Assembly: GCA_000165345.1 (NCBI GenBank)
Contig: CM000434.1
Location: forward strand, 640,001-704,000
Length of the DNA: 64,000 bases
Direction: 5' to 3'
The notes under the pieces were generated by a model. The model was not told where the DNA came from. It saw nothing but the letters and a program-made list of their open reading frames with translations, and ran no database searches. Made by a program: the position numbers and the translations under genes. Below are positions 17,130 to 61,274 of this stretch, in pieces; within the stretch, counting starts at the first letter, position 1; every line of letters starts with the position of its first letter.

Positions 17130-17148
17130 ATAGGAGTCAGAATTTGAC

Positions 17149-40673: not shown

Positions 40674-40720
40674 TTTTACCACACAAAAAATCCCTCATCC
40701 AATAGAAACCATGTGCTAGC

Positions 40721-41657: not shown

Positions 41658-44474
41658 ATGAGTTTCGAAGAAAGAATTTCAAGTGAAAATGGAGGAATCG
41701 AGATTTTGGGAGGTGCAAATCTTGTATGTGGGGTAACAGATTCTAGCCGTGGCTTAGTTTCTGTGTCAGACTTGAGTCCAAATCTCTCTGGAATAAAAGT
41801 TCAGTTTGGAGATCCCTCCCCTATTTGTGGAATTACTGGGCAGGATGCTTTGGGTGGCTTCCAATCTATCAACCAAAAGACCAAAAGCTCTGAGATAGGA
41901 ACAACTTTAAATGAATCTTTTCTGGTTTCAATTTCGGAGCTCAGATACATTGTTTTGATATGTATCCGATGGAGACTTCAAAATAGCTCCGAGCTGTCTT
42001 CAAACGTAAGTACAATCTTGGGAATTGGAACTGGAAGTTCAATCGCTCCAGTAGACTCCCCTTCAACATGTGGTGAGGAGTCTATAACTCCTTCCAAGGA
42101 GTATCTAGTATCTAATATCTTTCTCTACAGATCCTGTATTAGCGATTCTCATAGAGTGGAGCTAGAATTTCAGGTTGTTAGAGATATCTTGAGGCTTATA
42201 GACCCAACAGTTGAGTCTGGAGGCCGACATTTCTCTGGAAGGCTTGTCAATAGTGCCAACAGAAACATTATCAAGGAACTTGCTGGAGGGTTGGATTCCC
42301 AGGAGGCTAATGAAATGAGAAATGCTGAGAGTGTCTTGGGTTCTCAGTTCCTTCTGAGCAAGCTTCCATTTCCCAATTACGGGACTTTTCTTGGGAAGGA
42401 GACTGCTGAGTACACAATAGGTGATATAATCAACACTACAGAACATCCAACTGGACTAAACCTGGCCAATGTTGCCAGTACTCCCTCTATATTGGGAATT
42501 CTTCTCAAGTACTTTGATGTTTCCTGGCCGAGTCATATTTTTGAAAGTCTTCTTAAGAGTGATGTGGTTGGAGGCGGACTTCAGCAACAAGAAGACAATA
42601 TTAGTTCAACTGTCAAGGATTCTGGAGATGTTTCTCTTTCCTTGGGGTCTTTTACGCACGTTTTGGGCTTATGTAAGCCTTGTGTTTTTGTCAATAAGAC
42701 CAATAAGAAGTGTAGAAACGGTGTACATTGTTGTTTCTGCCATTTTCAGCATAAAGAAAGGAAGAGAGGCAAGAGGTATAAGTCTTCTGCTAACTGCTCC
42801 TCGACATCTAATTCCTGTAATAACTCTGGGGCTGGAACAGGAGTATGTTTGACTTCCTCTTCAGGGCAACCGAGCCATTCAGGGGCAAACAATTCTGGAG
42901 GTATTGCAAGTAATTATGAAGAACTTGGAGGAGGTATCGGGAATACCTCAGGATTTGGAGTCACATCAAATGGGGCCGGTATACTAAATGTTGAGGGCTT
43001 CTCCAAACAGGATATATCAGCTTTAGCTGAAGATTGTCTGCGGGTTTCCTCAATATCTCCAGCATCTATAAGAGGGCCCCACAACATATTTGGATCTAAT
43101 CGTTCTGAACTGTCTCAAGGGGCAGTGGGGCTTAGTTCTATTCAGCCTGCAGGTATGACAGCGGCTTCGGGATCACAATGTCTCCCAGATGTACTCTTCT
43201 CTCACCATGGATCCCAACAGCTCCAGAGGTACCCTTTGAAAGCTAATCAAGGCGCTAACAACCCTCTAACATCTTTCCAATCATCGGCCAGGAGCAATTC
43301 TGTCTTTGGAAAATCGTCTTGTCCTACAGGAAGTGAACAGCAACAGCAAATGCCAGTTAGATATCTTGTACCTCCTCCACCTCCACCTCCTTCCAAGACA
43401 TCAGGTGCTCTTCAAATATTTCAGAATGAAAAGGATGTCAATTTCCGAGATAACTCAAACCCTGTTGCAACATCGACTTCGGCAGGGTTTAACCAGCTCG
43501 GGACAAATTATCAGAAGGGTAGCTCTGACAAACATTCAATGAGGATTCCTGGATTAGTGTTGGATTCATGCCCATTCCAAAGCTCCCAAGGAGCTTCTCA
43601 GTCCTTTAATGACTCATTTTTTGGAGATTTTATTGGTTATAACAAATTGATCAATGAGGCTTCGGAGATGAATAACTGGATATCAGCCAATAACCCGGAG
43701 AACTCGTCTAATGCTATAAATCAAAACTCAAAGGTATATGGCTGCTTTCAGTGGCTCGATCAGCCAGAAATTGGTGAATCCATAGTCGATGCTTGGGGAG
43801 TAGGAAATACCTTTGACTCATTTATAAAGGGAAATGGTGCCAGTACCAGCCCTCAAAACTTGAATCAATGTCTTTATGATTCTCATTCATATTCTAAAGC
43901 TGCTCAAGATTGGACCTTTGCATCATCTATCATTAAGAATTCTTCAATAAACGCTTCCAATAGTGCTTCAGAGTCATCTTTTACTGTTAATAATCATAGC
44001 AACCTAGTAAATCCAAATTCTGCGTCTTCTCTACAGATCTCCACCAGCCAGCCCTCTTCCCAGAAGCTAAGAGAGTCTATTATCGGTTCACCATTAAACC
44101 TGGAGGCCAGCAGCATTAATTTCCATGACCAGGCTCAAACTCAATCTCAAGCCCAGGTTCAGAGTAGTCAGGCTTTACCTGAACTTGCTGAGGGAGTCCC
44201 AAATAGTCATAATGACTACTTTTTGAGCTCGCCTAGTGTATTTAATTCCAATGCTACAACCTCTTCACTCCCATCATCTCTTTCAGATAACAATAATATC
44301 AATAACGGCTCTTTCATTATGCCAAGTGGAAGTGTCGTTCCTCCATTTTTAAGAGGTAACCAGGGAGCTGGAGTTTCTTCTGAATACTCTGACTGTTCTC
44401 CTTTATCCTTTTTAACAGGAGGAGGAGCAACTAACTTTGGGATGGATTTCTGTTTCCTTAACTCATGGAAGTAG
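41658..44474 (+). CDS. low-complexity protein with a single CCCH-type zinc finger
   Basis: 938 aa, rich in S/N/G/Q, with a PPPPPPPS run. CKPCVFVNKTNKKCRNGVHCCFCH fits C-x9-C-x5-C-x3-H. Confidence 0.5.
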   Translation: MSFEERISSENGGIEILGGANLVCGVTDSSRGLVSVSDLSPNLSGIKVQFGDPSPICGITGQDALGGFQSINQKTKSSEIGTTLNESFLVSISELRYIVLICIRWRLQNSSELSSNVSTILGIGTGSSIAPVDSPSTCGEESITPSKEYLVSNIFLYRSCISDSHRVELEFQVVRDILRLIDPTVESGGRHFSGRLVNSANRNIIKELAGGLDSQEANEMRNAESVLGSQFLLSKLPFPNYGTFLGKETAEYTIGDIINTTEHPTGLNLANVASTPSILGILLKYFDVSWPSHIFESLLKSDVVGGGLQQQEDNISSTVKDSGDVSLSLGSFTHVLGLCKPCVFVNKTNKKCRNGVHCCFCHFQHKERKRGKRYKSSANCSSTSNSCNNSGAGTGVCLTSSSGQPSHSGANNSGGIASNYEELGGGIGNTSGFGVTSNGAGILNVEGFSKQDISALAEDCLRVSSISPASIRGPHNIFGSNRSELSQGAVGLSSIQPAGMTAASGSQCLPDVLFSHHGSQQLQRYPLKANQGANNPLTSFQSSARSNSVFGKSSCPTGSEQQQQMPVRYLVPPPPPPPSKTSGALQIFQNEKDVNFRDNSNPVATSTSAGFNQLGTNYQKGSSDKHSMRIPGLVLDSCPFQSSQGASQSFNDSFFGDFIGYNKLINEASEMNNWISANNPENSSNAINQNSKVYGCFQWLDQPEIGESIVDAWGVGNTFDSFIKGNGASTSPQNLNQCLYDSHSYSKAAQDWTFASSIIKNSSINASNSASESSFTVNNHSNLVNPNSASSLQISTSQPSSQKLRESIIGSPLNLEASSINFHDQAQTQSQAQVQSSQALPELAEGVPNSHNDYFLSSPSVFNSNATTSSLPSSLSDNNNINNGSFIMPSGSVVPPFLRGNQGAGVSSEYSDCSPLSFLTGGGATNFGMDFCFLNSWK

Positions 44475-44847
44475 GAGAGGGGTGCACCGATAATGCGACT
44501 AAGGGTTTGACACAAACATGTCGTGGATACCTAACTCCAGAATGTGCATCTTATCTGCCTAGTTCTTTAAAATAAGATGATGGGATTTCTAAAAGAGAGA
44601 TAATAAAAGATCAAAGATGTAATGTTATCAGGAAAGTGGAAAAGAAGAGACTCCATGAGAGAAATAGCGGAGGAAAAGTAGAGTAAGACATGCCAGAGAA
44701 GTTGTAGGTAACGTAAATAGTGTTTTGTCTGAAATTTCGGTTAGAATGTTGACTAATGAGACAAATTGTTTTCTCTGCATAGATTAATGTGGATATCAGT
44801 ATAACGATATTCTAGTCATGAAATAATAATTGTTAATAATCCGAGTT

Positions 44848-45588
44848 CTATTCCTTCTTTCTACGTTTTTCCTCCTCTTCTTGTTGTTTTCTGATTAGAA
44901 TGACTACAATCTTAGTAAAGAGGTTGACAGCATCAAGGTAAAGCTGAATAGAGTGAAGAAGGAAATCTCTTTCACCATATGCAATAGCTTCAAGAGTCTT
45001 TTGGGTATCGTAGTAAATATAAAATGAGTAAACCATAACAAAAGCATAGGATAAAAGTGAATCAACAAATTTGGATCTTGTGAAGATATTAAAGAATGAT
45101 ACAAGTCCAAGATATGCAATAGTTGTGAAAATAAAAGAAGTAGTATATAGAGAAAGTCTCTTCTTAGTGAATAAAACTCCAAAAGATAGCGAAATAAAGA
45201 TAATACATGTGGTTGCAAGAGCTGTGGGAATGATAACAGGATTAACAAAGTTACTAAATAGAATCAAAGGTCCAAGTCCATTACCAATTACAAAGCATAG
45301 TAACAAATAGGCTGCTAAACGTTTAATGGAAATAGAGCTCTTATTAGATGATGATGCTGTCAAATAGAATGTGACACCAATTCCAGCCAAAAGACCAACA
45401 AATGAGTTGATTCTTAACATTCCATTAATAAATGCAGTCACCCCAAATACTGTCATAAATGAACCAGCAATAATAGAGGAGTACATTTTTAACAAGTGGG
45501 TTTGCTGAATTGAAGTCAGATCTGATGAATTAAAGAAGTTTCCACTGAACTGGGACTTTCTTGAATTAGTTGCAAAGAATGATTCCAT
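44848..45588 (-). CDS. Bax inhibitor-1 (TMBIM6 family)
   Basis: 246 aa with 7 predicted TM helices. GNGLGPLILF, FDTQ...AIAYGERDFLLHSIQLYLDAVNLF and the basic KRRKKE C-terminus match BI-1. Confidence 0.8.
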   Translation of the reverse strand: MESFFATNSRKSQFSGNFFNSSDLTSIQQTHLLKMYSSIIAGSFMTVFGVTAFINGMLRINSFVGLLAGIGVTFYLTASSSNKSSISIKRLAAYLLLCFVIGNGLGPLILFSNFVNPVIIPTALATTCIIFISLSFGVLFTKKRLSLYTTSFIFTTIAYLGLVSFFNIFTRSKFVDSLLSYAFVMVYSFYIYYDTQKTLEAIAYGERDFLLHSIQLYLDAVNLFTKIVVILIRKQQEEEEKRRKKE

Positions 45589-46143
45589 TTTTTTTTAATT
45601 TTAATTGAATCTTAGTCAATTCGAGTTGTGTGTTTGAATTTACAAAATCTAATAGAGGTTGTTCGCTATAATAAGGATAAACGACTGTATGCCTTTGTTC
45701 CTTCGCAAATTTTCTTTCTGTTTACAATTTAAAGGCAATAATTAAATAAAAATCCAACTTTCTTTGTCAGATCTTTCTTTCTTTTTGTTTTACCCTGAAT
45801 CCTGGCATTTCTTAATTTTGTTTAATACCGGTATGTGAGCGTCTTGTCTACTGACTTTTAAAAATATTTATTAATGGCAGGAAAGAAATGGAATTTTGTT
45901 ATTGGGCGGGAATTGTTGGAAGTGGTGGGAAAATTGGTGTGTTAGGTATGAATTACGTGTTTGAGCGGCAATTTCATGCAAGTTAGGGTTGGATGGGGGG
46001 ACTAGAGGGAAGAGGGTGCGAATATGCAGTGGTTGTAGCAATACAGTGCATGCATGTGTTTACAATGAACATGTAGGGAAGAAGTGAAAAGAGAGGAGAG
46101 AAAAGGAGAGGAAAACGAGAGTAAAGAGATGAGGGGAGTGAGA

Positions 46144-46188
<45 letters not shown>

Positions 46189-46258
46189 GAAAAATCATTA
46201 TTAAGGATAAAAAGCTAATATAGCAGTTATTTTCAAGAGTTCAAGTATTGATGAACAA

Positions 46259-47389
46259 TTACTTGGTGACTTTGAATGACTGAACAAGCTGTAAAAGCTC
46301 TTTGGCCCTAGGGTCAGTATTAAAATGGTCACGAATTGGTTGTAGCATAAGGTTCAAAGCGTCAGAAAGACCTTTTTTCAAATCACCAGGGTGAAGATCG
46401 CCACTAAGATAAGCCTTATGGAAATCTTCTTTATTGGTAAAGGTGATATCACCACCATACTCTTCTTTTCTAGAAACATGGAAATGACCGAATTTGGGGA
46501 ATACTAGAGTATTAATATATTCAATGCATGGATTTCCTTCAATAATGCCTGGAGGACAGAAAGCCTTTTTAATTTTTTTAACAACAGCTTCAGGAGTATC
46601 TTCAACAAATATTGCAGAAGAAGTGTCAGATTTTGACATTTTTTCTTGTCCTTCAAGTAACCCAGGAAGCATCTTATGGGAAAGGATTACAGGTTTATGT
46701 TTGATTCCAGCTGCATCACAGTATTCTCTAGCAAGCATGTTAACTTTTCTTTGATCCATACCTAACTGGCAAATATCTGCCTTGAGTTGGAATATATCAG
46801 CACATTGCATGCATGGATAAAATACTGAAGCACACGGTTGTTCATCATTTTCTTGTCTTCCCATAATTTGGCAACATCTTTTAATTCTAGTAATATTAAA
46901 CTTTCTAGAAATATCAAAAACTCTTAACCAATACTCATTAGAATCTTCCCCATTAATAAAATCAGATGCCCAAACAAATCTTACATTTGTCATATCCATT
47001 CCTGCAGCCTTCCATATGTGAACGAAATATTCACCAACAATCTTAATTTTTTCAAGATCACCACCCATCTTATTATTGAGCAGAGCAAACCAATCTGCTA
47101 CGTAGAATACAAAAACGCATCCGCATTCAGTTAACTTATTTACATTAATAGTCTTTAATATACATTGAGCAATATGCATTCTTCCTGAAGGTTCAAATCC
47201 ATCATAACAAATTGGATGTTCTTTTCTCTTTAATAATTCCAACAATTCTGCTTCTTGAATACATTCTTCACCAACTGATAAACATAACTTATGTCTTTCC
47301 TCCAAAGTTAACTTTGATCTTTTCAATGGCTCTTCACTTCCTTTCAAAATGTATTTGGGGATAGTTTCAGTACAACTATTAGATGACAT
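46259..47389 (-). CDS. tyrosyl-tRNA synthetase (class I, archaeal/eukaryotic type)
   Basis: 376 aa. CYDGFEPSGRMHIAQ corresponds to the HIGH region, a KMSKS motif is present, and AFCPPGIIEGNP resembles the TyrRS AYCP..EGNP segment. Confidence 0.85.
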   Translation of the reverse strand: MSSNSCTETIPKYILKGSEEPLKRSKLTLEERHKLCLSVGEECIQEAELLELLKRKEHPICYDGFEPSGRMHIAQCILKTINVNKLTECGCVFVFYVADWFALLNNKMGGDLEKIKIVGEYFVHIWKAAGMDMTNVRFVWASDFINGEDSNEYWLRVFDISRKFNITRIKRCCQIMGRQENDEQPCASVFYPCMQCADIFQLKADICQLGMDQRKVNMLAREYCDAAGIKHKPVILSHKMLPGLLEGQEKMSKSDTSSAIFVEDTPEAVVKKIKKAFCPPGIIEGNPCIEYINTLVFPKFGHFHVSRKEEYGGDITFTNKEDFHKAYLSGDLHPGDLKKGLSDALNLMLQPIRDHFNTDPRAKELLQLVQSFKVTK

Positions 47390-48070
47390 ATTTCCAACAA
47401 GTTCTTTATGAGAAGTTTATTTTTCTTTTTCTTGAAGAATCTTTCTCCCTTTAAACCTCTTTTTCAGTCCTAAATGATCTTTTCCAGTCTAAACTATTTA
47501 AAAGAACTTTGAGCGCCAAAGACACACTAATTATTTGCCCTATAATAACTTGAGTCATGAATTCAGAACTTCTAGAATTACTTTTTTTGGCATATTTCCT
47601 CCTTTAAGTCGTTCAAAGTGTGTTTTAGTACACTCTAAAGCTATGAGTAGTGTTTATAGGAAGGAAAAAGAAGGAAAAATGGTAAAATTTGTTAGCATGT
47701 AATATTTAAATTCTAAAAATTAAAGATATAATCGAAGTAACTAGAGCCTAAAGATAGAAACAAATAAATAATTTAAAATTTAGATAACTATTTAGATTGC
47801 AAAATGCGAATTATGAATATTTATTTTAAAAAAAGAAAATAAAGTCAAAAAGAAAAGCAGTAATTTCCCACTGCGTATTTTCATTCATTTTTACATTATT
47901 ATATACCAGCATGAGACGAAATGAGCGGGAAAATCTCCGGGCCATAAAATACTAAAATAAATTGAAGGAAAAGAATCAATTTGAAGGAGGAAGAAGGAAG
48001 AGCAAATCTTCTCAATGAATTAGTTCAAGTATAATGGAAATAGTATTAAATCACTTAATACATACAGGCA

Positions 48071-48958
48071 ATGCAAAAGTCATTGTCTATACATAAGCAT
48101 AAGATGGTGTTAAAGTTATTATTAACATCACTTTTGGGATTATTAAATATTATTGTGTGGGCCAATGGAGAAGAGCGAGAACCATTTTGTTTGGAGATTT
48201 ACGACAATAAAAATGATGAAAAGCATCTCCCATACTATTTCTTGAACGAGTTCCCAATCTGTAAAGAGCATGAAAGACGAACTTGCTGTAAAAAAAGTCA
48301 TTCTGAGGCAATTTCAAGACTTTTCTCAACATTAGTAGCAAGATCATCCCTTTCTACCAGATGTTCAAACTTTTACCAAAAGTCTTTATGTTCATACTGT
48401 GATGCAGATATAGGTGTTGGAAAAAAAGTTATACAGAAATCCCCAATCCTTTGTCAATCTTACTGTAACCTATGGTATGATGCTTGCTACGAAGATTACT
48501 TTGATAATATACAAAACTCCTATATACGAAATATTGAAGATATATCTTTTATTCGATTAAATCTTATTCCCTGTACGGATTCATCAGCTATTTGTTCCCC
48601 TTTACATGCAATTACATTAGACCCTACAGAGTTTTGTTCCTTAAATGGGTTCTCCACTCATCAAGATTTTCATTCATCATCAGGGCCTGCAAGTCTCACT
48701 GAGTACAATACAGAATGTTTTAATGGTATTCCGGCAGCTTCGGTTCTTAAACCTGGAATTAGACAAAAGACCCAAAGTTACAAATATAAAAGATCGCAGT
48801 ATAGTAAAAAGCCAAAGGCTAAAAACAAATTTTATCAAATTATTCAGGATCATATTAACGTTTTCTTGGAAAACGTTAAGGTTCCTTTACCTGTTATTGT
48901 CTTTATTTCTATCATTTCGATTTGGATTATTAACCAAGTCATAAACTTTTTTATCTAG
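48071..48958 (+). CDS. cysteine-rich secreted/membrane protein
   Basis: 295 aa with an N-terminal signal peptide, more than 16 Cys including CC pairs, and a C-terminal hydrophobic segment (VIVFISIISIWIINQVINFFI) consistent with a TM or GPI signal. Confidence 0.5.
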   Translation: MQKSLSIHKHKMVLKLLLTSLLGLLNIIVWANGEEREPFCLEIYDNKNDEKHLPYYFLNEFPICKEHERRTCCKKSHSEAISRLFSTLVARSSLSTRCSNFYQKSLCSYCDADIGVGKKVIQKSPILCQSYCNLWYDACYEDYFDNIQNSYIRNIEDISFIRLNLIPCTDSSAICSPLHAITLDPTEFCSLNGFSTHQDFHSSSGPASLTEYNTECFNGIPAASVLKPGIRQKTQSYKYKRSQYSKKPKAKNKFYQIIQDHINVFLENVKVPLPVIVFISIISIWIINQVINFFI

Positions 48959-49606
48959 CTTTATACTTAAGCCCGTATACATTTAGAAAATTCCCATTAT
49001 ATATCTTTATTTATCTAATCTTTCTCATTTATTTATTTCTTGACTTCTATAGGTTTACTTTGAATAATTCAATCCTCCGATATATTTCTACGCCACGCAA
49101 TTTGGCGGTAAGAACATGCACGCATGCACTTGCAAATTTTGCAAACGGTAATATTTTCTATGTATACAAATGGTACAAATAGAAAAGTGAGTAACCTGTT
49201 GAGATATATTTGAATTAAAATATTTGAGGTCGAGAATAGAGTTTTATCTGGAAATTTAATATTTTGAGCAACAGTTTACTAAATGTTTTATGTTGGTTTT
49301 CACATTCCTAAAGCGGTAATTTTATAATTTCCAGTGAGAATGCTCAGAAATGGATGCTGTGGTATGTGGGGAGGGAATGACGAAAAGCTTAAGGGAATAT
49401 ATGCAAAAGACAATACATATATTTCGAAAAAAAATAATTATAATTAAATGTAAAGGTATCAATATAATAACATGTAACGGTAAATTATTGCCATTTTTAA
49501 GTAAACAAACTTCTCTATTTTCAATACCTAAATTTAAACCATAAATCCATGTAATTATAGGGATTGCTTATGATAAAAACGTTAATCACTATAAAACATA
49601 ACAAGG

Positions 49607-50389
49607 ATGAAAGATATTAAAAAAGTCGCTGAAACCATTAAATTATTGGTTGCATATAGGGAAAAAAGTGTGAGAATATTTGGGGATGGACTTGACTTAA
49701 GAGCTCCAATTCAGCCATTATTTCCAACCAAAGCTGAGAACATTTCTGGAACAGAGAATTCTATATCCAGATCAAGCTTAGAATCAAGGACCATTACAAC
49801 TGATGCTGCTGATTTGTTGAATGAGCTTGCAGCAATGCACTACGAATGGGCATTGGATAACTATGCAAAGGTAAGAACTAGAGACCATCAGGAACAGCAG
49901 AAAAAATGCTCAGCTATCCAAAAGGAGGAAATAGCAGCTCCAAGCCCATATTTGAGCTACTTATCTAGCCAATACGATGGAATTGACAGTCCAATCGTGG
50001 GTGAGATACTTGAAAATAAGCACGGATATATTGTAATGGAATGTATTCTACTACTACTTAACCAAAACAATTCTATTGAGTATGGTACAGAGCATTTTAA
50101 AAAGTATGCAAGTTTAATGCTTCTTTTAAGTGATATACTTAGATGCATGAAGAGACAAAAATCTTTGCATTGCGATACAATGGACTTCCATGTACTAGTG
50201 GATATTTTATTCAGAGAAATGGTTATCATGAGAGACTCTGGTTTTGCACTATTCGAGTACGTTTCATGCCTAAATATAGTTATCAAATGTATTGCTTCAA
50301 CAAAGGAAAAGTATAGATGGGGTGAGGCTACTTCCCTTCTTTCAGTTACAGAATCTCTGATTGAAGGGTTTGGGGTTTCATCTCAATGA
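49607..50389 (+). CDS. hypothetical protein
   Basis: 260-aa ORF, no recognised domain. Confidence 0.4.
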   Translation: MKDIKKVAETIKLLVAYREKSVRIFGDGLDLRAPIQPLFPTKAENISGTENSISRSSLESRTITTDAADLLNELAAMHYEWALDNYAKVRTRDHQEQQKKCSAIQKEEIAAPSPYLSYLSSQYDGIDSPIVGEILENKHGYIVMECILLLLNQNNSIEYGTEHFKKYASLMLLLSDILRCMKRQKSLHCDTMDFHVLVDILFREMVIMRDSGFALFEYVSCLNIVIKCIASTKEKYRWGEATSLLSVTESLIEGFGVSSQ

Positions 50390-50528
50390 GTAGTTTGGAA
50401 TTGTACAAGAAAATTACTGGCAAATTTTTTTTACGTCATAAAAATGCCCATAGCATTTAAACAAATTGTTTAATTACTATCACAAATGTTCCCGCCAATG
50501 CTCACAGAATATATTTAAAATTTGGTAA

Positions 50529-51465
50529 ATGGTAAATAATTTGATTTGGAGGATCAGCAGGCCAATCTCCTCGAGAGTTTTCTCTGCCATACCATATTTT
50601 AGTAAGAGAACGCTTTTTCTGTCTTTTAAACGCTTCTTTCACTCAGATCCAGAACTATGGACCAAAGATGTTCATCCGAAGATGTAAGTTAATCTATTCT
50701 AGACTTAAGAAATTATAATTAAAGTTCAACTTTTTAATTCACCATTAATTGGATCCTTAGAGAACTTTCGTTTATATTGAGAGATGGTGAGAAGAAAGTT
50801 TTTAATGTAAGTTTAGAGATCTATATCTTTTATAAATACTTTAACCATTTAACTTTGCTATAACTCAGGCTCCAAAGAATATTTCTTTACTAGAAGCTGC
50901 TCAGCATGAAGAACTAGACATAGAAGGAGCATGCGAAGCATCTTTAGCATGTAGCACATGTCATGTCATTTTGGACAAAGTAAGTTTATTGAATAGATTA
51001 ACTGGGGACGAGGAAAAAAAAAGGAAACGGAACAAACTATCGGTCTAATTTCGATGTGAAGTTCCAAATAAATAACATAAAGATCTTCCTAATATAAAGA
51101 CCCAAAAATTCACAATTCATTTGCAAAAGGGGGATAACTATAAAAGCAAACATCTATTCTTCCTCAGATGCGCACAAACTAGAACTTGTCCATGAGACTT
51201 GCATCTTAACTTTGTGCTCTCATACCCTTAAAGGCCTCGCACTTATCCTTATTTTTCACTCTTTAATCCATAGGAAATTTATGATGAACTAGAACCGCCA
51301 TCAGAGAGAGAAGAGGATATGCTGGATATGGCACCGCAAGTTTGCGAAACTTCAAGATTAGCATGTCAAATCAAAGTCGACGAAAGACTGACAAAGGGTA
51401 ACATTCATCTTCCTAACATGACACGAAATTTCTATGTCGATGGATTTAAACCATCACCACACTAA
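50529..51465 (+). CDS. adrenodoxin-type [2Fe-2S] ferredoxin (mitochondrial/mitosomal Yah1-like), 5 exons
   Basis: The exons are 50529..50601, 50648..50684, 50761..50806, 50869..50979 and 51274..51465. The introns are 46, 76, 62 and 294 nt long. Their donors are GTAAGA, GTAAGT, GTAAGT and GTAAGT, and every acceptor is YAG. The spliced product has an Arg/Ser-rich presequence (MVNNLIWRISRPISSRVFSAIPYF). The mature part, FILRDGEKKVFNAPKNISLLEAAQHEELDIEGACEASLACSTCHVILDKEIYDELEPPSEREEDMLDMAPQVCETSRLACQ, aligns along its length with adrenodoxin (INRDGE...GACEGTLACSTCH...MLDLA...SRLGCQ). Confidence 0.7.
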
Positions 51466-51484
51466 GGCGGGAAGTTTTGGCGCC
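51466..51484. promoter_or_regulatory. E2F-like GGCGGGAAGTTTTGGCGCC, likely PABP promoter
   Basis: Starts 1 bp after the ferredoxin stop and lies 640 bp upstream of the PABP ATG. A purine-rich leader follows. Confidence 0.4.
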
Positions 51485-52008
51485 GAGCCACTTTGTATGC
51501 CGATACTTTTCCGTCTCTAATATATTTGGGAAGTTTAAGGTCGTGAAGAAAGAAAGGTTAGGAATAAAGATTATTTAATTACATAAGATCCCGCAAGGTA
51601 GACACGTATCCAAAGTAAATTTTAAGTCAGATTTGACAGGCAAGTATATTGTAAATAATGGTATTTGCGGATAACAATGACTTGTAAATCCACTAATACA
51701 GGCCCAGTTAATTTGGCGCTAAATGGTTAATTAGATTTAGTGAATTAATCAGAATGATTACGTCTAAAATAAGTGGAGCGTTATACGTAAAATGATTTAA
51801 GCACTATAAAGTAATTGAAATTAAAGTAAGAATAAGTAACGATGCACCAACGGCGACAGGAAAATATGTCCAGTAGAAATGAAGGTAATAAATGAATAGT
51901 ATTTTAATAGTATGATAATAAGGTCTAATGAGGTAATAGAGAGAAAAGGCTCCAGTCAAGAATAACATTGTAAATTTAAAGAAAAAATTCAAAAGGCTGT
52001 TTTTAGTC

Positions 52009-52032
52009 AAAAAAAAAAAAAAATAAAAAAAA
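52009..52032. promoter_or_regulatory. oligo(A) tract (A14TA8) in the presumed PABP 5' leader
   Basis: Direct read of the sequence; 95 bp upstream of the PABP ATG. Confidence 0.45.
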
Positions 52033-52125
52033 GACCATTGGTTGCAATTATAGTGACAAAGGGTCGCCCTATAGTTCTAGCCAAACAAATACATCAGATT
52101 TTTGTGAAGAAGGCCTATTGGAAAG

Positions 52126-54366
52126 ATGACAAGTAATAATAACGTAGTACCGGTTAGTGCCTCCCTTTATGTGGGTGATTTGGATGCAGATGTGACTGAG
52201 ACAATGTTATATGAAATATTTAATAGTGTTGCAGTTGTATCATCAGTACGTATTTGTAGAGACGCTCTTACAAGAAGAAGCTTGGGTTATGCTTATGTCA
52301 ATTACAATAGTGTAGCGGATGCTGAGAGAGCTCTAGATACTCTTAATTTCACATGCATCCGTGGCCGTCCATGCAGAATTATGTGGTGCTTACGCGACCC
52401 AGCATCCAGAAGAAACAACGATGGAAATGTATTTGTAAAGAATTTGGATAAGTCGATTGATAATAAGACATTATTCGATACTTTTAGTCTATTTGGAAAT
52501 ATTATGTCATGTAAAATCGCTACCGATGTTGAGGGTAAGTCTTTGGGATATGGTTTTATCCATTTCGAACATGCAGACAGTGCTAAAGAAGCTATTTCTA
52601 GGCTAAATGGGGCTGTATTGGGAGATCGCCCAATTTATGTCGGAAAGTTCCAGAAGAAGGCTGAACGCTTTTCTGAAAAAGATAAGACATTCACTAATGT
52701 CTATGTTAAACATATCCCTAAGAGTTGGACTGAAGATCTTCTATACAAGATATTTGGAGTATATGGTAAAATTAGCTCATTGGTCCTGCAATCCGACTCT
52801 AAAGGTAGACCTTTTGGTTTTGTGAACTTTGAAAACCCCGATTCCGCTAAGGCTGCAGTTGCTGCCTTACACAATGCTTTAGTTACTCCAGTAGGGGTTG
52901 AGTTGGACTCTACAGCAGAGACTCCAGTTGATAACGAGGCTGGAGCTGATTCTGAGACATCATCCAAGCAAGAATCTGGAGAAGCTTCTAATAAAAAACA
53001 AACTGCATCTGGCGAAGCATCAAAGGATTCTTCAGGAACATCAAACGAGGAATCTGCACAGAATGAGGATGGATCAGCTGACAAGAATGTTTCAGCTGAT
53101 GTACAACCAAATAGACTATATGTTTCTAGAGCACAAAAAAAGAATGAACGTCAGGTGGTCTTGAAGTCTCAACACGAAGCTGTAAAGGAGAGCCACCAAA
53201 GATACCAAGGTGTAAATCTTTATGTAAAGAATTTGGCAGATTCAATCAATGAGGAGGACCTCCGTTCTATGTTTGAACCATTTGGAACAGTATCTTCCGT
53301 AAGCATTAAGACTGATGAATCAGGTGTCTCAAGAGGATTTGGGTTTGTTTCATTCCTCTCCCCTGATGAAGCTACAAAGGCTATTACTGAGATGCACCTT
53401 AAGCTTGTGCGCGGAAAGCCACTGTATGTAGGCCTTCACGAACGTAAAGAACAAAGAGCACTACGTCTTCAGCAGCGTATTAGAGGGGGTGCAGTCCCTC
53501 CAGTTTTAAGACCCGGAGCAATTCCCCCAGGCCCTCCAGGAGTACATGGAGCTCCCATGCAATTTGGTGTACCACCACAAATGTACTTTATTCCTGGAAA
53601 TCCAAATGTGGCAGCAACTGCTATGCCACATGGAAGAGCGATGGTTACAGGAGGTTTCCCTAATCAAAATGCAATGAATAATCCATGGAGGCCAAATCCA
53701 ACAAGAATGCCATACACTGCAGGAGGTGTGCCTCCTCAAATGACAGGCGGTCCTCAAATGACAGCCTATAATGGCAACGTTATCCAACAAAATGGAGTAT
53801 CTCCAAACGGAGCTGCTAATGCTACCGGGTCTGTCCAAAATGGAGTCACCGGTAATGCAGTTACAGGAGTTCAAGGTGCTCAAAATAACAGAACTGGAGG
53901 AAATAACCAGAGAATTCATAATAGACATGTTCAAGGTAATGGGCAAGGAGGAAGGCCGGGCTCCCATGGTCATCAAGTTCAGCAAATGCAAAAGCAAGGA
54001 TTCAAATTTCCACAAAACGTTAAGGGATCTGAAATGCAGCGCGTGGATATGATGCAAAATAGACAAATGGATTCATCAAACGGCGCACTTGTTCAGAATC
54101 CATTAATCCCTCAACCAGATGTTCCTCTAACTGCTGCTACCTTGGCAGCTGCATCCCCTAGCATGCAGAAACAATTACTTGGAGAGAGACTTTTCCCAAT
54201 TATTGCCCAATTCCAACCAGAATTGGCAGGAAAGATCACCGGGATGATGCTTGAAATGGATAACAATGAATTATTAGAACTTTTGAGTTCTGATATTGAA
54301 ATCAAAAACAAGGTAGATGAGGCCATGGTCGTACTTGAACGTGCTCAGCAACAAATTAGCACGTAA
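52126..54366 (+). CDS. PABP: poly(A)-binding protein (four RRMs plus PABC/MLLE domain)
   Basis: 746 aa. The first RRM starts LYVGDLDADVTETMLYEIF and three more RRMs follow. The C-terminal LGERLFPIIAQFQPELAGKITGMMLEMDNNELLELL is a canonical PABC domain. Confidence 0.9.
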   Translation: MTSNNNVVPVSASLYVGDLDADVTETMLYEIFNSVAVVSSVRICRDALTRRSLGYAYVNYNSVADAERALDTLNFTCIRGRPCRIMWCLRDPASRRNNDGNVFVKNLDKSIDNKTLFDTFSLFGNIMSCKIATDVEGKSLGYGFIHFEHADSAKEAISRLNGAVLGDRPIYVGKFQKKAERFSEKDKTFTNVYVKHIPKSWTEDLLYKIFGVYGKISSLVLQSDSKGRPFGFVNFENPDSAKAAVAALHNALVTPVGVELDSTAETPVDNEAGADSETSSKQESGEASNKKQTASGEASKDSSGTSNEESAQNEDGSADKNVSADVQPNRLYVSRAQKKNERQVVLKSQHEAVKESHQRYQGVNLYVKNLADSINEEDLRSMFEPFGTVSSVSIKTDESGVSRGFGFVSFLSPDEATKAITEMHLKLVRGKPLYVGLHERKEQRALRLQQRIRGGAVPPVLRPGAIPPGPPGVHGAPMQFGVPPQMYFIPGNPNVAATAMPHGRAMVTGGFPNQNAMNNPWRPNPTRMPYTAGGVPPQMTGGPQMTAYNGNVIQQNGVSPNGAANATGSVQNGVTGNAVTGVQGAQNNRTGGNNQRIHNRHVQGNGQGGRPGSHGHQVQQMQKQGFKFPQNVKGSEMQRVDMMQNRQMDSSNGALVQNPLIPQPDVPLTAATLAAASPSMQKQLLGERLFPIIAQFQPELAGKITGMMLEMDNNELLELLSSDIEIKNKVDEAMVVLERAQQQIST

Positions 54367-55286
54367 ATCTAGAGATTCTGAGTCTTTTTTTTTGCTACTA
54401 GAAGTGTTATAACACTAGATTTTTTTTTATTTCTACGCTTGTTTTAACTTTTTCCATTGCTTTTCTAAATTAGTGTAATACAAATCTTGATTGCTTCTAG
54501 AATCAATGTGTAAATTTCTCTCTTCACTCCTTTATATGCGTTTCGAATGGTTTTTACCACTATTGTTATTAATGCAACTACTACTACTACTGATCCCGGT
54601 TCATCAAGAGTTTGAAACAATGTCTTTAATCATTATCGTCACATTAAATAAACATTACTTTATATATAGAGAGCGCGCACATGCATGTAAAATTTCAAGT
54701 GCATGCAAATTGTCAAAATCTGTGAAAGTTAACTAATAAGAAAGAAAACATATCCTAATTAAAATTTACTTAATCTAGATACACAGCCTAATCCAATTCA
54801 CTGCAACTTTTTAATTAAACAAATACACTCATTAATTTTTTTTTTTTTTTTTTTGCTACTAAAAATAAAACCATTATTTTTCTTAAATTCATCATTACTA
54901 ATGTGTCCACATAAATTGACAAATGCAATTATAAAAATTACATGATGTTGGCGCCCAACACGTAATCTAAATTAAAAAAATGGGGAAATATAAGTAATTA
55001 ATGCTAAATAGATAGAGGGGAAATTATATGGGGAAAAGTCAGGACAAAATTTACATGGAAAATTTGAGAAAAAATATTTGAAAAATAAACGCTTTTAAGT
55101 AATTGATTTTTTTTTTAAAGTGTTTATTAAAATCAAGAGTATTATATTCATGCTAACTAAGGAAATATATTGTATAAATAGTACCAAAGAAGTGAATAAT
55201 ATATTTGAATTGGCAAGATAAATAAAAAGATATTTATCCAAAAAAAAAAATTAAAGTGGAAGAGTGAGAGAAAACTTGAGGAAAAA

Positions 55287-56570
55287 ATGACTCAGGGAGT
55301 AATTTTGGAAATGATTCCAAGAGTAGAACAAACGGAAAATGTAATCGAAGAAAAACCTGTTGAAAATAATGATACTGATTTAGCAAAACTAAGTAATAAA
55401 ATCTTTGGTAATGAAATGGCTAATGTTCCACTAGTTTTCGATGAATTTCCAGTGACGAAGTTGTTACTCAGCTTTTTTGTAATACTATTTATATGTTTTG
55501 GAGTGATTGACATGATTCTAGGCTTTATTAGGCTTGGATTAATGTCATTTATTATTTCAATGTTTGTGTTATTTTTCAGATGTGGAGAAAGAAATCGTCA
55601 GCATAGTTCCATTTTTGTACTTTTTATTGTAGCATTGACCTCATCTCTAAGTTGGAATTCAATATCAAATTATATATTGAAAAATGAAGGAACACTTTTT
55701 GAAGAGAAAATATACCCACTATTGATTCTCGAGTTTTCATCATCACTATTTTTAACACTTTGGCTAATGTTAATAGCTCTTTCTGGTTATTCTGTTAAGA
55801 ATCAGCAAAATATTTATATTGATAATCAATTGTACAGAACAAACACAAATTTACGTTTTACAGCATTATCCGCTTTTAACTGGTATCTAATTTCAATGGG
55901 ATTTGAATTTTCAGTTCTTGTTTTATATTTATTGGAAGGATTTTACATAGTTTCAATCATTCCATTTATAAGTTTGCTAGTTTCAATGTTTTATGTAATT
56001 AGCAAATCCAAACGTATTTTACAATATTCAGAAATCTTTTTACCGTTTGTTATGTTGGCATATGTAATACTTAGAATGATTTATGAGTGGGTGGCTCCTG
56101 ATGACTATTCATCTATGATTGGAGCCTATTTGGTAACTATTATGGTCTTTAAACAGGTTGTCGGTCTTTCAATCTTATTTATCCCAAGCATTAACTATTA
56201 TGACATGATTAATGATAATGGTTCATATAGTGTCACTGTTGTTGTTTCTTTTAAGATTCATCAAAATAAGCAAGAAAATGCTGTTAAGAGTGCAGATATT
56301 ATTGATATTTCACCCACAAACAGAGTAATTGCTGAAAATCCCGAGTCTGAAAATAGGGAAGAGGAGGCTATTACAGTAATTCAAGTCTCTTCTAGCGAAG
56401 ATCCGGAAGGATTGATTAAATCCGTTCAAAATGATCAAATTGAGTTAAATAAAGAATCATTTGACTTAGAAACGCAAAAAAGTCACTCCGCAGTAGAGGA
56501 TGACGCAGAAGCAAATATCCCATACGAGGATGAGTCTTTAAAAATTGAAATAAATAGTAAATTAAATTAA
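55287..56570 (+). CDS. multi-pass membrane protein (hypothetical)
   Basis: 427 aa with about 8 hydrophobic helices and an acidic C-terminal tail. Confidence 0.5.
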   Translation: MTQGVILEMIPRVEQTENVIEEKPVENNDTDLAKLSNKIFGNEMANVPLVFDEFPVTKLLLSFFVILFICFGVIDMILGFIRLGLMSFIISMFVLFFRCGERNRQHSSIFVLFIVALTSSLSWNSISNYILKNEGTLFEEKIYPLLILEFSSSLFLTLWLMLIALSGYSVKNQQNIYIDNQLYRTNTNLRFTALSAFNWYLISMGFEFSVLVLYLLEGFYIVSIIPFISLLVSMFYVISKSKRILQYSEIFLPFVMLAYVILRMIYEWVAPDDYSSMIGAYLVTIMVFKQVVGLSILFIPSINYYDMINDNGSYSVTVVVSFKIHQNKQENAVKSADIIDISPTNRVIAENPESENREEEAITVIQVSSSEDPEGLIKSVQNDQIELNKESFDLETQKSHSAVEDDAEANIPYEDESLKIEINSKLN

Positions 56571-56730
56571 ATAAGTAGGTAAATTTTTGAAAAGAAAAAC
56601 CTACATATAGTGATTCAAGCCTGAATATTTTCGAATTCTTGATTTTTATTTAAAAAAATTATGCTTAAATAGAAAATAGGTAATAATTAATTTTGAATTT
56701 ATTTTTCTTTTTTTTGTTAATTTGCTTGCA

Positions 56731-56794
56731 ATTGCATGTATACCGGTATTGCAATATTGTCATGCTAATAGGCGGCAAAGTTGCCCCACGTAAT
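56731..56794. promoter_or_regulatory. promoter cluster: GCATGTATACCGGTATTGCAAT ... AGGCGGCAAAG
   Basis: The palindromic ATACCGGTAT at 56740..56749 lies 138 bp upstream of ATG 56887, with an E2F-like GGCGGCAAAG at 56771. Confidence 0.45.
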
Positions 56795-56886
56795 ATTATT
56801 TGAAGGTCAACAATATTTTGTGTGCAAATAAAATTTTAGTATTAAAAAGTAGGGATTAGGTTAGAGAGAAAATTGTGAGGTTGTAG

Positions 56887-59800
56887 ATGAATAGAATTCG
56901 GAATGCGGTAAGATTGAGGAGGAAAGAGTCCCAAGAGACTACAGGAAAGAAGAGTGAAGGAGAGATAAATTTTCAATCGGAGAATAGTAAGGGCTTAAAT
57001 ATTGTGGGGAAGGAAAATTCGGGTGAAATTGGAATTCCTGAAATTTTGAGTTATTTTCCTGACTTATACGTCGATAGTTCGAACGGATTTTCCGCTAATG
57101 GAGGAGGAGTTGGACAAATGATTTGTGGAACAATATCATCCTTTTTCGAGGATACTTGGAACAGAGCAATGGGTGAAATGAAACAGGTCAAATCAAGAAA
57201 TATTTGTAATTTATCATCTGATTTAAGTCTTGGTATTCATTTGAAAAGAGAATGGCATCGTTTGTGGCTTGTAAGAAGCTTTTTGGCATTCGCATGGGAG
57301 AGTTATCTTGAAGACCTGATGATTGAAAATGATAAGTTTCCTAAAGAATATTTGAATCTCCCTAGTTATGGCACTAATTTGGAGGGAATTGGTAAAATTT
57401 CCCTTGGTGAGATTCTTTGTATTGTAAGTTGCAGCAAATTGACTTATTCTGAAAAGAGTACTATTTCAATCCCATTTTCTACAATTCAAGGCAAGATGAT
57501 AATTAAAAAATCACTAAGTTTTAATTATAATCTTCATTGGAAGACCCCTACTCCTAATACAGTTGCTAAATTTCGTGTTCTTCAGGATCAGAAAAAGCTG
57601 CCAAAGACAAATACTAGTAATGTTGAAGGTGGAGATTCTGTATTTATGTCATTGGATATTGATAATCCCCAGTTTCTTTGGAAAAGTTCTTTTTCTAATC
57701 AAATTCCAAAAGAGTTTGAAGATCTTCAAACACTTGCATCTTCCGTAAGAGTTCTAAGAAAGGATGAGACAGCAAAGTTTACTATTGATGGTAAGAAAAG
57801 TATTGTAATAAAATTACTTAATTGGTATCGTGAGACACAAGATATAATTACTTATGAAAACAAAAATGTAAATTGTAAATATTTTATTGAACAAGAAGAC
57901 TTTTACTTTGACAATGATTTAAACAATTCTCAAATTCAAGGAAACGTGACAAGTGTTGAGTATTCCATTACTTCCGATGATAATAGAAAAAGGAAGCTCT
58001 TCACTGGTTTGACATATATATCTAATGGAAGTTATTTCTCTCCAATGTTAGGAACGGTAATGAGAGGAAATTCTAAAGCCGTTATTTACATTACCAAAGA
58101 GTTAGCAAATCTTGAATTGGGAATATTAAAAAAACATTCTGATAACTCCAAGTTTTCAAATTGTCTAAGAAGTATTGTGACTGGAATGGACTCTGGAAAA
58201 AGATATTTTCTTCATTTAGAGATTCCTTCAATAGAAAAAGAGCTACAAGATCTTCAAATAAAAGAAAAAAATAAGACTTTAATGTTTAAACATGTTATCC
58301 AGAATAAAAAGCAATTTGAAAGCAGAATACAACTACTACAAGACCTAAAAGCTTTTGGGCATTTAGTACTTTCCAAATTTTCCATTGGAAATGGAGAGTC
58401 TGCAATAATAGAGAATGTATATATTAGGGAAATTGGAAACGATCCTATTCTATTGGAAACTCTTAGAGTCAAGTTAAATCAACATCTCCTTGAGAATAAC
58501 TTATTTGAAGTTCCATTTGTATTTTTTGAAATTGAAAATCATTCTAAGAGTAAATATCAGGCTTTTATAGTTTGCCCTTGTATCAGAAATTATAATGAAC
58601 TACTCTTTTATTCTCACTTTAGGTGGCTTAAAGGGGAATATATAAAAAAGAAAAGGTTTGAAATCAGTCCAAATGAAGCTTATTCAAGACATATTTTTGG
58701 AGATTTGAGACAAACCAAGGAACAGAATCATCAAAGGAATGACCAAATTCAAATGGGAATGTCTCATTACAATAAAGGAGTAACTCTACTAGTAGAGCTT
58801 GGAAGATTCAACTTCCATCTAGAAGAAGGAATTTTGGAAGATCTGAGAGATAATAGAAGTCTATATTCTTTAGAATGGGAATTTGAATGGTTAAATAATA
58901 ATTCTGAAGGAGGATTATCCTTATTCTTCCATGTTTTAAGAACTTCCTTTTTTATATTATATGAATCTTATGGAGGAGCAATTTCTGATCTAAATCAGGT
59001 TCTACTTGATACACTTAACTTTACTAATATTCAAAAATGGAAATTATCTTTAAGATTTGAGAAAATGATGGAGTTTTTGATCTTAGAAACTAAAAAAAGA
59101 GCTGGATCTATCTATTTTAATATTATTGGATTATTATCCCAGTTATTAATGGAAATTCACTTAGAAGGAAAGACCAGTAAAAGATTAGTTGAGGAAATAT
59201 TGAACAAAGTAAGAGAAAGTATGAAACATGCATCAGTTCAGATTATTTTGTTGGATTACTTGGTAACTTGGATACTAATTAATGTTTCAGTATTTAAAGT
59301 ATGTACAAAGGATTTATCTTTGAAACTTGGGAGTATTTTCCAGAATCTCCTAGTTTTTCATAGAATTTGTAGAAAATTTCTTCAGGATAGAAAAGATCAA
59401 GTTCAAATTCAATTGGAAGTTTTATGTGAAAGAATGACTTTTACAGGAATTATTAATAGTATTTTACCTGTTACGACATCAAATATGAAAGGAGAGAATG
59501 GAAAGGAGGCATTTTTCAAATACATCATGAGGTTTTATATTTTTGAGAAGTTGTCTCAGTTTTTGGTAAATCCAATGGATGCAGAGACTCAATATAATAA
59601 TGAAAAGATAAGTTACTTTAATCTTCTCAGAGAAGAACCAACACTTGATATATTATCTTTGGGAGATAATAGAAGTGGGGTACTAGGACTAGGATCTCCC
59701 AGAATACAACTTTTTTCCGATTTGGAATGTAATCTTTACCGAGGGTTATCAAAAATCAATGAAACTTTCTTGCTAGATAGAGTTGAGGAAGAGAAAACAA

Positions 59801-61221: not shown

Positions 61222-61274
61222 TCTTTATTTTTCAGTGACTACGAAAAAAAAATCCCTTTCCATTCACAAACACT

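What the first reader, a model, noticed from the sequence alone, without database searches (positions are those of the whole stretch)
50529..51465. Five-exon adrenodoxin-type ferredoxin gene that the ORF track misses entirely
No ORF in the supplied track covers this gene. Splicing four GTAAGN...YAG introns (46, 76, 62 and 294 nt) gives a continuous frame. The product has an Arg/Ser-rich organellar presequence and a mature domain that aligns with adrenodoxin/Yah1 over its length, including the GACEASLACSTCH cluster-binding loop and the MLDMA...SRLACQ second Cys region. In an apicomplexan with a reduced mitochondrion, this would be the electron donor for Fe-S cluster assembly. The first intron is only 46 nt with a non-consensus GTAAGA donor, so the true 5' exon is easy to miss. 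I reached this structure only after rejecting several alternative frames.
Basis: partly seen in the sequence, partly recalled or inferred. Interest (0 to 1): 0.7.

Follow-up and report, generated by a model that had tools for sequence, protein, structure and literature searches.

The report
Known Cryptosporidium mitosomal ferredoxin gene Fd1

Summary
The gene is real, and its span (50529..51465, + strand) matches the public annotation to the base. The window is Cryptosporidium parvum chromosome 6.

- **Gene model:** Removing three GT..AG introns (50684..50760, 50807..50868, 50980..51273) gives a 167-aa protein. This protein is letter-for-letter the deposited "ferredoxin-like protein Fd1" (EAZ51527.1, QOY41184.1).
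- **Protein family:** It passes Pfam Fer2. It matches human FDX2 (E 1.9e-31) and yeast Yah1 (E 2e-28). It has the C-X5-C-X2-C-X36-C cluster ligands and the FDX2-type C-terminal motif TRNFYVDGFKPSPH.
This is 50602..50646, which is 45 nt, not 46. I reject it. It is in frame and stop-free, and the product that lacks it is in no database searched. Four of six other Cryptosporidium species lack its GT and three lack its AG. All keep the frame open, with synonymous changes and one 3-nt indel.
The stated intron lengths (46/76) hit a stop codon; 45/77 are the true GT..AG intervals.

The functional reading is the standard one and is already in the literature: electron donor for mitosomal Fe-S cluster assembly. 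The finding is ordinary and already known.

The parts
50529..51465 (+). Whole Fd1 gene, start codon to stop codon (937 nt)
   Evidence: Identical to the gene called on C. parvum CP029785.1 (locus L008 1501-2437). The spliced product equals EAZ51527.1/QOY41184.1 exactly.
50529..50683 (+). Exon 1 (155 nt): start ATG 50529-50531, preceded by in-frame TAA. Encodes the 51-residue basic leader MVNNLIWRISRPISSRVFSAIPYFSKRTLFLSFKRFFHSDPELWTKDVHPK plus 2 nt of codon 52.
   Evidence: Open frame. The exon is 155 or 158 nt and stop-free in all seven species compared.
50602..50646 (+). It is coding sequence for (S)KRTLFLSFKRFFHS, not an intron.
   Evidence: In frame and stop-free. The product lacking it is absent from the 15-billion-protein collection, while the product containing it is present. 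The GT donor is absent in C. canis, felis, xiaoi and ryanae. The AG acceptor is absent in canis, felis and xiaoi. Length is always 45 or 48 nt, with synonymous changes in the R/F/H/S codons.
50684..50760 (+). Intron 1 (77 nt, GTAAGT...TTAG), phase 2 after codon 51
   Evidence: Same position in six other species, with lengths 66-159 nt that are not multiples of 3.
50761..50806 (+). Exon 2 (46 nt): (I)ELSFILRDGEKKVFN, the first beta-strand of the ferredoxin domain
   Evidence: Aligns with Yah1 'ELKITFILKDG' and FDX2. It is 46 nt in all seven species.
50807..50868 (+). Intron 2 (62 nt, GTAAGT...TCAG)
   Evidence: Orthologue lengths are 61-67 nt. The junction is spanned by a gapless alignment to human FDX2.
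50869..50979 (+). Exon 3 (111 nt): APKNISLLEAAQHEELDIEGACEASLACSTCHVILDK. Cluster ligands are Cys89 (50932-50934), Cys95 (50950-50952) and Cys98 (50959-50961).
   Evidence: It is 111 nt in all seven species.
50980..51273 (+). Intron 3 (294 nt, GTAAGT...ATAG)
   Evidence: Orthologue lengths are 224-329 nt, with 44-124 gap columns in alignments to C. parvum. The junction is spanned by a gapless alignment to FDX2.
51274..51465 (+). Exon 4 (192 nt including TAA stop 51463-51465): acidic EREEDMLDMAP helix, fourth ligand Cys135 (51364-51366), and FDX2-type C-terminal motif TRNFYVDGFKPSPH (51421-51462)
   Evidence: alignment to 8rmc_I runs to the last residue. It is 192 nt in all seven species.

Best explanation
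Window 50529..51465 (+) is the nuclear gene for the mitochondrial-type (type II, FDX2/Yah1-like) [2Fe-2S] ferredoxin of Cryptosporidium parvum, deposited as 'ferredoxin-like protein Fd1'. It has four exons (155, 46, 111 and 192 nt) and three GT-AG introns (77, 62 and 294 nt), and encodes 167 residues.

Shown here: gene structure, family membership, cluster-ligand pattern, C-terminal motif, and conservation across Cryptosporidium.

Inferred from the family and the literature:
- The basic, acid-free N-terminal leader of about 40-50 residues imports the protein into the mitosome (the relict mitochondrion).
- Cys89, Cys95, Cys98 and Cys135 hold one [2Fe-2S] cluster.
- The protein is reduced by the Arh1/FDXR-type ferredoxin reductase using NAD(P)H.
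- It docks through its acidic helix (EREEDMLDMAP) and its C-terminal NFYVD segment on the cysteine desulfurase-scaffold complex (IscS/Nfs1-IscU).
- There it delivers the electrons that reduce the persulfide sulfur during de novo [2Fe-2S] assembly.
For: **Identity**
- The window gene is identical to the gene on C. parvum CP029785.1.
- The 167-aa product is found by exact look-up as EAZ51527.1, QOY41184.1, WKS78412.1 and KAL5368176.1.
- AAM50091.1 'ferredoxin-like protein Fd1' differs only at the last residue.
- The neighbours (260-aa protein, poly(A)-binding protein) are also exact C. parvum proteins.

**Family**
- Pfam Fer2 scores 43.5 bits against a cut-off of 21.
- PDB matches: human FDX2 8rmc_I at E 1.9e-31, gapless over residues 52-167. 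Yah1 2mjd at 2e-28. Human and bovine adrenodoxin (FDX1) only about 72 bits.
- The best NCBIfam hit is the ISC-system ferredoxin TIGR02007 (E 2e-19). Plant-type ferredoxin scores 19 bits.
- The Cys spacing is 5/2/36.
- The C-terminal residues N156, F157, V159, D160 and H167 match FDX2 N175, F176, V178, D179 and H186. PMC11618653 reports the first four as NFS1 contacts and describes this C terminus as the FDX2-defining motif.

**Introns**
- The same three positions occur in seven species. Exon lengths are fixed and intron lengths vary freely.

**Role**
- The literature lists one Yah1-type ferredoxin, one Arh1-type reductase, IscS, IscU and frataxin for C. parvum (PMC3044749 Table 8).
- It refers to the 'mitochondrial Fdx/FdxR pair' (PMC3542205).
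- It reports a retained ISC system in the mitosome (PMC8051059; PMC3617024).
Against: - No transcript data could be consulted, so the splice junctions rest on homology, GT-AG rules, comparative genomics and agreement with deposited (mostly predicted) models.
- No targeting predictor was available. The presequence claim rests on composition only.
- Microarray signal for Fdx/FdxR was at or near background in oocysts (PMC3542205), so expression in that stage is low.
- Cluster binding, localisation and electron transfer were not tested here and cannot be tested with these tools.
Confidence: 0.93

Rival explanations
1. One reading: a five-exon gene in which 50602..50646 is a constitutive 45-nt intron, giving a 152-aa protein with a shorter leader (…AIPYF|NPELW…).
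For: In C. parvum the segment begins GTAAGA and ends with a pyrimidine-rich tract plus CAG (CTTTTTCTGTCTTTTAAACGCTTCTTTCACTCAG), so it looks intron-like. Removing it keeps the frame. The same borders are kept in chipmunk genotype I and C. ubiquitum.
Against: - The 152-aa product is absent from the protein collection, whereas the 167-aa product is present in five C. parvum assemblies and in C. hominis, C. meleagridis, C. tyzzeri and chipmunk genotype I models.
- The segment is stop-free and 45 or 48 nt in all seven species.
- The donor GT is missing in four species and the acceptor AG in three. The acceptor is lost by synonymous Ser-codon changes (TCA to TCG or TCT).
- The encoded R-x-x-H-S-D-P-E-L-W is the best conserved part of the leader.
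- True introns of the same gene vary in length by non-multiples of 3.
Confidence: 0.03
2. The 45-nt segment is a facultative, in-frame intron ('exitron') in the C. parvum, chipmunk and C. ubiquitum lineage. Two isoforms (167 and 152 aa) are made that differ in the presequence.
For: Intron-like borders and a polypyrimidine tract are kept in exactly the three closest species. Removal is frame-neutral.
Against: There is no transcript evidence either way. The borders coincide with conserved codons (G/S-K and H-S-D), which explains their retention without invoking splicing. At 45 nt it is also shorter than every confirmed intron of this gene in any of the seven species (61 nt or more).
Confidence: 0.04
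3. The protein is an FDX1/adrenodoxin-type donor for cytochrome P450, lipoyl or haem a synthesis, or a plant-type or other ferredoxin, rather than the Fe-S assembly donor.
For: All these proteins share the Fer2 fold, and adrenodoxins are also hit at E about 5e-19.
Against: FDX2 scores about 40 bits higher than FDX1 (112 against 72 bits), and the FDX2-specific C-terminal motif is complete. Plant-type ferredoxin scores 19 bits against a cut-off of 81. The literature lists only one mitochondrial-type ferredoxin for C. parvum, alongside the ISC core.
Confidence: 0.03

Closest known systems
Cryptosporidium parvum ferredoxin-like protein Fd1 (EAZ51527.1, QOY41184.1/CPATCC_002841, AAM50091.1, UniRef Q86DP9/A0A7S7RFT6)
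   Same: It is this gene. The DNA is identical to CP029785.1 and the 167-aa product is identical.
   Different: Nothing differs. AAM50091.1 alone has Q instead of H at the last residue.
Human mitochondrial ferredoxin-2 (FDX2; PDB 8rmc chain I, 2y5c)
   Same: The alignment is gapless over the whole mature domain (E 1.9e-31). It shares identical GACEASLACSTCH and DMLDMAP segments, the same four Cys ligands, and the same C-terminal TRNFYVDG..P.PH motif. In FDX2 that motif contacts NFS1 in the proximal state (PMC11618653).
   Different: The presequence is unrelated. The parasite protein has an extra conserved Cys128. Its organelle is a genome-less mitosome, and no biochemical data were examined here.
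Yeast Yah1 (PDB 2mjd)
   Same: E 2e-28. It shares the same fold, ligands and acidic helix, and has an established role as electron donor to the Nfs1-Isu1 complex (PMC11618653).
   Different: Yah1 lacks the FDX2-type C-terminal motif, and the alignment stops at residue 159.
Adrenodoxin / FDX1 (PDB 1ayf, 3p1m, 1e6e)
   Same: Same vertebrate-type [2Fe-2S] ferredoxin fold and the same C-X5-C-X2-C-X36-C ligands.
   Different: The match is weaker (about 72 bits) and has gaps, with a different C terminus. FDX1 serves P450s and lipoyl/haem a synthesis rather than Fe-S assembly (PMC11618653).
Bacterial ISC-operon ferredoxin Fdx (NCBIfam TIGR02007)
   Same: Best NCBIfam hit (E 2e-19), and the same pathway logic.
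   Different: The score of 69.7 is below the equivalog cut-off of 132.1. This is a eukaryotic, intron-containing, presequence-bearing homologue.

Membership tests
Mitochondrial type II [2Fe-2S] ferredoxin (FDX2-like; vertebrate/adrenodoxin-type superfamily) | Fer2 (PF00111) domain above Pfam's gathering score | tested here: met
   43.5 bits against a cut-off of 21, residues 60-139
Mitochondrial type II [2Fe-2S] ferredoxin (FDX2-like; vertebrate/adrenodoxin-type superfamily) | Four cluster-ligand cysteines spaced C-X5-C-X2-C-X36-C and aligned with those of FDX2/adrenodoxin | tested here: met
   Cys89, 95, 98 and 135. They align column for column with the 8rmc_I segments 'egaceaslacstchv' and 'srlgcqi'.
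Mitochondrial type II [2Fe-2S] ferredoxin (FDX2-like; vertebrate/adrenodoxin-type superfamily) | Conserved C-terminal motif that distinguishes FDX2 from FDX1 and from fungal ferredoxins (N175, F176, V178, D179, H186 in human FDX2) | tested here: met
   TRNFYVDGFKPSPH against human TRNFYVDGHVPKPH, aligned to the last residue. The motif's significance is described in PMC11618653.
Mitochondrial type II [2Fe-2S] ferredoxin (FDX2-like; vertebrate/adrenodoxin-type superfamily) | Acidic interaction helix that docks on the reductase and on NFS1 | tested here: met
   EREEDMLDMAP against FDX2 EREDDMLDMAP. The mature domain has net charge -11.
Mitochondrial type II [2Fe-2S] ferredoxin (FDX2-like; vertebrate/adrenodoxin-type superfamily) | N-terminal organellar targeting presequence | tested here: inconclusive
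   Residues 1-40 have 5 R, 2 K, 7 S and no acidic residue before D40. The hydrophobic moment peaks at residues 4-14. A leader of equal length is kept in six other species. No targeting predictor or localisation data were available.
Mitochondrial type II [2Fe-2S] ferredoxin (FDX2-like; vertebrate/adrenodoxin-type superfamily) | Binds a [2Fe-2S] cluster, is reduced by an Arh1/FDXR-type reductase, and donates electrons to the IscS-IscU complex | not testable with these tools
   Only literature context is available. C. parvum is listed with one Yah1-type ferredoxin, an Arh1-type reductase, IscS, IscU and frataxin (PMC3044749 Table 8; PMC3542205).
FDX1-type adrenodoxin (P450 electron donor) | Closer to FDX1 than to FDX2, with an FDX1-type C terminus | tested here: not met
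   FDX1 chains score about 72 bits with gaps, against 112.5 bits for FDX2. The C terminus is FDX2-type.
Plant-type (plastid) [2Fe-2S] ferredoxin | Reaches the TIGR02008 cut-off | tested here: not met
   19.2 bits against a cut-off of 81.15
GTAAGA...CAG over 45 nt.
   GT is absent in four of six other species and AG in three. The segment is always 45 or 48 nt, stop-free and carries synonymous substitutions. The deposited product contains the 15 residues, and the product without them is not on record.
Spliceosomal intron (applied to 50684..50760, 50807..50868, 50980..51273) | GT-AG borders, conserved position, free length variation, interruption of an otherwise gapless protein alignment | tested here: met
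   GTAAGT donors and YAG acceptors. The positions are the same in seven species, with lengths 66-159, 61-67 and 224-329 nt. The FDX2 alignment is gapless across junctions 2 and 3.

The most novel reading that the evidence does not exclude
In C. parvum and its closest relatives the 45-nt segment 50602..50646 might be removed in a fraction of transcripts as an in-frame 'exitron'. That would delete the conserved KRFFHS part of the presequence and give a second isoform with altered import or processing, for example a cytosolic pool. The evidence does not exclude this, because GTAAGA, a polypyrimidine tract and CAG are all present in those species and no transcript data could be consulted.
Probability: 0.04. 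Interest if true: 0.35.

Novelty: already known. Interest (0 to 1): 0.08.

Why it matters
It matters little as a discovery. The gene, its product and its presumed role in mitosomal Fe-S cluster assembly are already in public databases and reviews.

There are two practical points:
- Prokaryote-style ORF tracks hide the minority of spliced Cryptosporidium genes.
- Several deposited orthologue models look mis-spliced (C. canis 186 aa, C. ubiquitum 139 aa, C. felis 158 aa, C. ryanae 161 aa, a C. hominis 413-aa fusion, the old 109-aa C. parvum model, and an N-terminally short C. muris model). They can be corrected to a uniform 167/168-aa four-exon structure.

Tried and rejected
Intervals of 46 and 76 nt from the GTAAG donors do not end in AG, and the translation contains a stop. 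I replaced them with 45 and 77 nt.
- **Five-exon model.** Rejected on the exact look-up and on comparative evidence.
- **Unrestricted enumeration of GT..AG combinations.** This timed out. It was redone with GT[AG][AT]G donors and YAG acceptors. That pattern missed the C. canis GTAGGT donor, which I then located by hand.
- **Literature search for likely gene identifiers** (cgd6_3000, CPATCC_002841 and others). It found nothing.
- **The chromosome 6 paper PMC403770.** It is not held.
- **A search for 'mitochondrial ferredoxin' together with Cryptosporidium.** It returned mostly human FDXR papers.
- **Transcript-derived contigs carrying the product.** None were found. All five contigs are genome assemblies longer than 1 Mb, so splice junctions could not be checked against RNA.
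- **tRNA and Rfam scans of the window.** Both found nothing.
- **Structure prediction.** Not run, because the sequence match to solved FDX2 and Yah1 structures is already decisive.

Full report
**What is in the sequence**

Between 50390 and 52125 there is no ORF of 60 aa or more on the + strand. GTAAG donors lie at 50602, 50684, 50807 and 50980.

Intervals of 46 and 76 nt from the first two donors end in GA and TA, and the resulting translation contains a stop (…MFIRR*). With the true GT..AG intervals (45 nt, 50602..50646, and 77 nt, 50684..50760) the frame is continuous.

The 45-nt interval is a multiple of three and contains no stop. The frame is therefore also continuous if it is kept, which gives 167 aa.

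**Identity of the locus**

An exact-sequence look-up among about 15 billion proteins gave these results:
- The 167-aa version is present as Cryptosporidium parvum 'ferredoxin-like protein Fd1 / 2Fe-2S ferredoxin' (EAZ51527.1, QOY41184.1 = CPATCC_002841, WKS78412.1, KAL5368176.1).
- The 152-aa version is not in the collection at all.
- The flanking ORFs are exact C. parvum proteins too. These are 49607..50389 (a 260-aa hypothetical protein) and 52126..54366 (poly(A)-binding protein).
- The gene called on C. parvum chromosome record CP029785.1 spans 937 nt, and its DNA is identical to window 50529..51465.

The gene is already known.

AAM50091.1 ('Fd1') is a separate deposit that differs only at the final residue, H to Q. 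That looks like an independently cloned copy. I could not check whether it came from cDNA.

**Family**

- The product passes Pfam Fer2 at 43.5 bits against a cut-off of 21.
- Against all PDB chains the best match is human mitochondrial ferredoxin-2 (8rmc_I, E 1.9e-31). The alignment is gapless from residue 52 to the last residue, 167.
- Next come yeast Yah1 (2mjd, E 2e-28) and other mitochondrial ferredoxins. Human and bovine adrenodoxin (FDX1) score only about 72 bits and need gaps.
- Putidaredoxin-type and bacterial Fdx proteins are weaker still. NCBIfam's best hit is the ISC-system ferredoxin TIGR02007 (E 2e-19, below its equivalog cut-off). Plant-type ferredoxin reaches only 19 bits.
- The cluster ligands Cys89, Cys95, Cys98 and Cys135 have the C-X5-C-X2-C-X36-C spacing. 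They align with those of FDX2.
- The C terminus TRNFYVDGFKPSPH matches human TRNFYVDGHVPKPH. PMC11618653 describes this conserved C terminus as the feature that separates 'type II' ferredoxin (FDX2) from adrenodoxin and fungal ferredoxins. It reports N175, F176, V178 and D179 as contacts with NFS1 in the proximal, electron-transfer-competent state.

'Adrenodoxin-type' is therefore correct but imprecise. The protein is FDX2-type.

**The three real introns**

I fetched the orthologous loci of Cryptosporidium sp. chipmunk genotype I, C. canis, C. xiaoi, C. felis, C. ubiquitum, C. ryanae and C. muris.

In the first six, the same three intron positions give full-length proteins of 167 or 168 aa. 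Exon lengths are 155 or 158, then 46, 111 and 192 nt. The introns vary freely, at 66-159, 61-67 and 224-329 nt, and carry many indels. Rigid exons with free introns are what genuine introns look like. Junctions 2 and 3 are also spanned by the gapless FDX2 alignment.

The same comparison rejects 50602..50646 as an intron.
- In all seven species the frame from the ATG to the K|GTAAG donor is open, at 52-53 codons.
- The segment is 45 nt, or 48 nt in C. canis through an in-frame GGT insertion.
- The GT at the putative donor is absent in C. canis (AC), C. felis (TT), C. xiaoi (TC) and C. ryanae (TT).
- The AG at the putative acceptor is absent in C. canis and C. felis (GG) and in C. xiaoi (TG). 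It is lost through synonymous changes of the Ser codon (TCA to TCG or TCT).
- Neighbouring codons show further synonymous changes: CGC/CGT, TTC/TTT and CAC/CAT.
- The encoded K/R-R-F-F/H-H-S, followed by DPELW, is the best conserved part of an otherwise fast-evolving leader. I infer that it may be the processing site of the presequence, because an Arg three residues upstream resembles the R-3 cleavage motif. This was not tested.

In C. parvum, chipmunk genotype I and C. ubiquitum the segment does keep GTAAGA, a pyrimidine-rich stretch and CAG. Occasional alternative splicing cannot be excluded without RNA data, and I give it a few per cent.

**Mechanism**

*Shown here:* a conserved, intact, four-exon gene for an FDX2-type ferredoxin, with all ligands, the acidic docking helix EREEDMLDMAP and the NFS1-contacting C terminus. 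It also has a basic leader: 5 R, 2 K, 7 S and no acidic residue before D40. The mature part carries net charge -11.

*Inferred from the family and from the literature:*
- The protein is imported into the mitosome.
- It is reduced by the Arh1/FDXR-type reductase.
- It delivers electrons to the IscS-IscU complex for persulfide reduction during [2Fe-2S] synthesis.

The literature already places this protein there. PMC3044749 Table 8 lists one Yah1-type ferredoxin, one Arh1-type reductase, IscS, IscU, frataxin and chaperones for C. parvum. PMC3542205 speaks of the 'mitochondrial Fdx/FdxR pair', with microarray signal near background in oocysts. PMC8051059 and PMC3617024 state that the C. parvum relict mitochondrion retains the ISC system.

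**Verdict**

The gene is already known and annotated, and the specific 'five-exon' claim is wrong. The gene has four exons, three introns and a 167-aa product. Interest is low.

**Incidental points**

Several deposited orthologue models differ from the uniform structure and look mis-spliced. The annotated C. muris model probably starts too far downstream. tRNA and Rfam scans of the whole window found nothing.

Noticed in passing
L002 1501-2470 (C. canis), L005 1501-2446 (C. ubiquitum), L004 1501-2364 (C. felis), L006 1501-2548 (C. ryanae): The deposited ferredoxin models of these species look mis-spliced. The C. canis model is 186 aa, with 18 extra residues (PMKPGSTERPTDKIRDWG) taken from inside intron 3. 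The others are 139, 158 and 161 aa. All four loci can be spliced at the same three positions as C. parvum, giving 167/168-aa proteins with exons of 155/158+46+111+192 nt. The C. canis intron 3 donor is GACAAG|GTAGGT.
   Followed up: partly
L007 1427-1503 (C. muris RN66): The annotated 134-aa C. muris ferredoxin starts at L007 1501. The frame is open upstream to an ATG at about L007 1427 (MNTLSSIKNYISRITMSRSLFALSR-MNFSS…). That start would add a basic presequence which the deposited model lacks.
   Followed up: no
window 50659..50683 and 50869..51465: The older C. parvum chromosome 6 model CAD98588.1 (109 aa, MDQRCSSEDAPKNISLL…) starts at an out-of-frame ATG inside exon 1 and skips exon 2. A C. 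hominis model (OLQ16321.1, 413 aa) fuses the upstream 260-aa gene to the ferredoxin. Both conflict with the 167-aa model.
   Followed up: partly
window 49607..50389 (+): The 260-aa upstream neighbour is conserved and syntenic in all Cryptosporidium loci fetched. It is annotated only as hypothetical, with a weak precomputed Pfam hit to SPIN90_LRD (PF09431). One record (C. tyzzeri) calls it 'folate receptor-like', which probably belongs to the next gene upstream (48071..48958, PF03024 in the orthologous loci).
   Followed up: no
window 1..64000: There are no tRNA genes (ARAGORN) and no Rfam family at gathering threshold anywhere in the 64-kb window. It is densely packed with long single-exon ORFs, as expected for C. 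parvum.
   Followed up: yes
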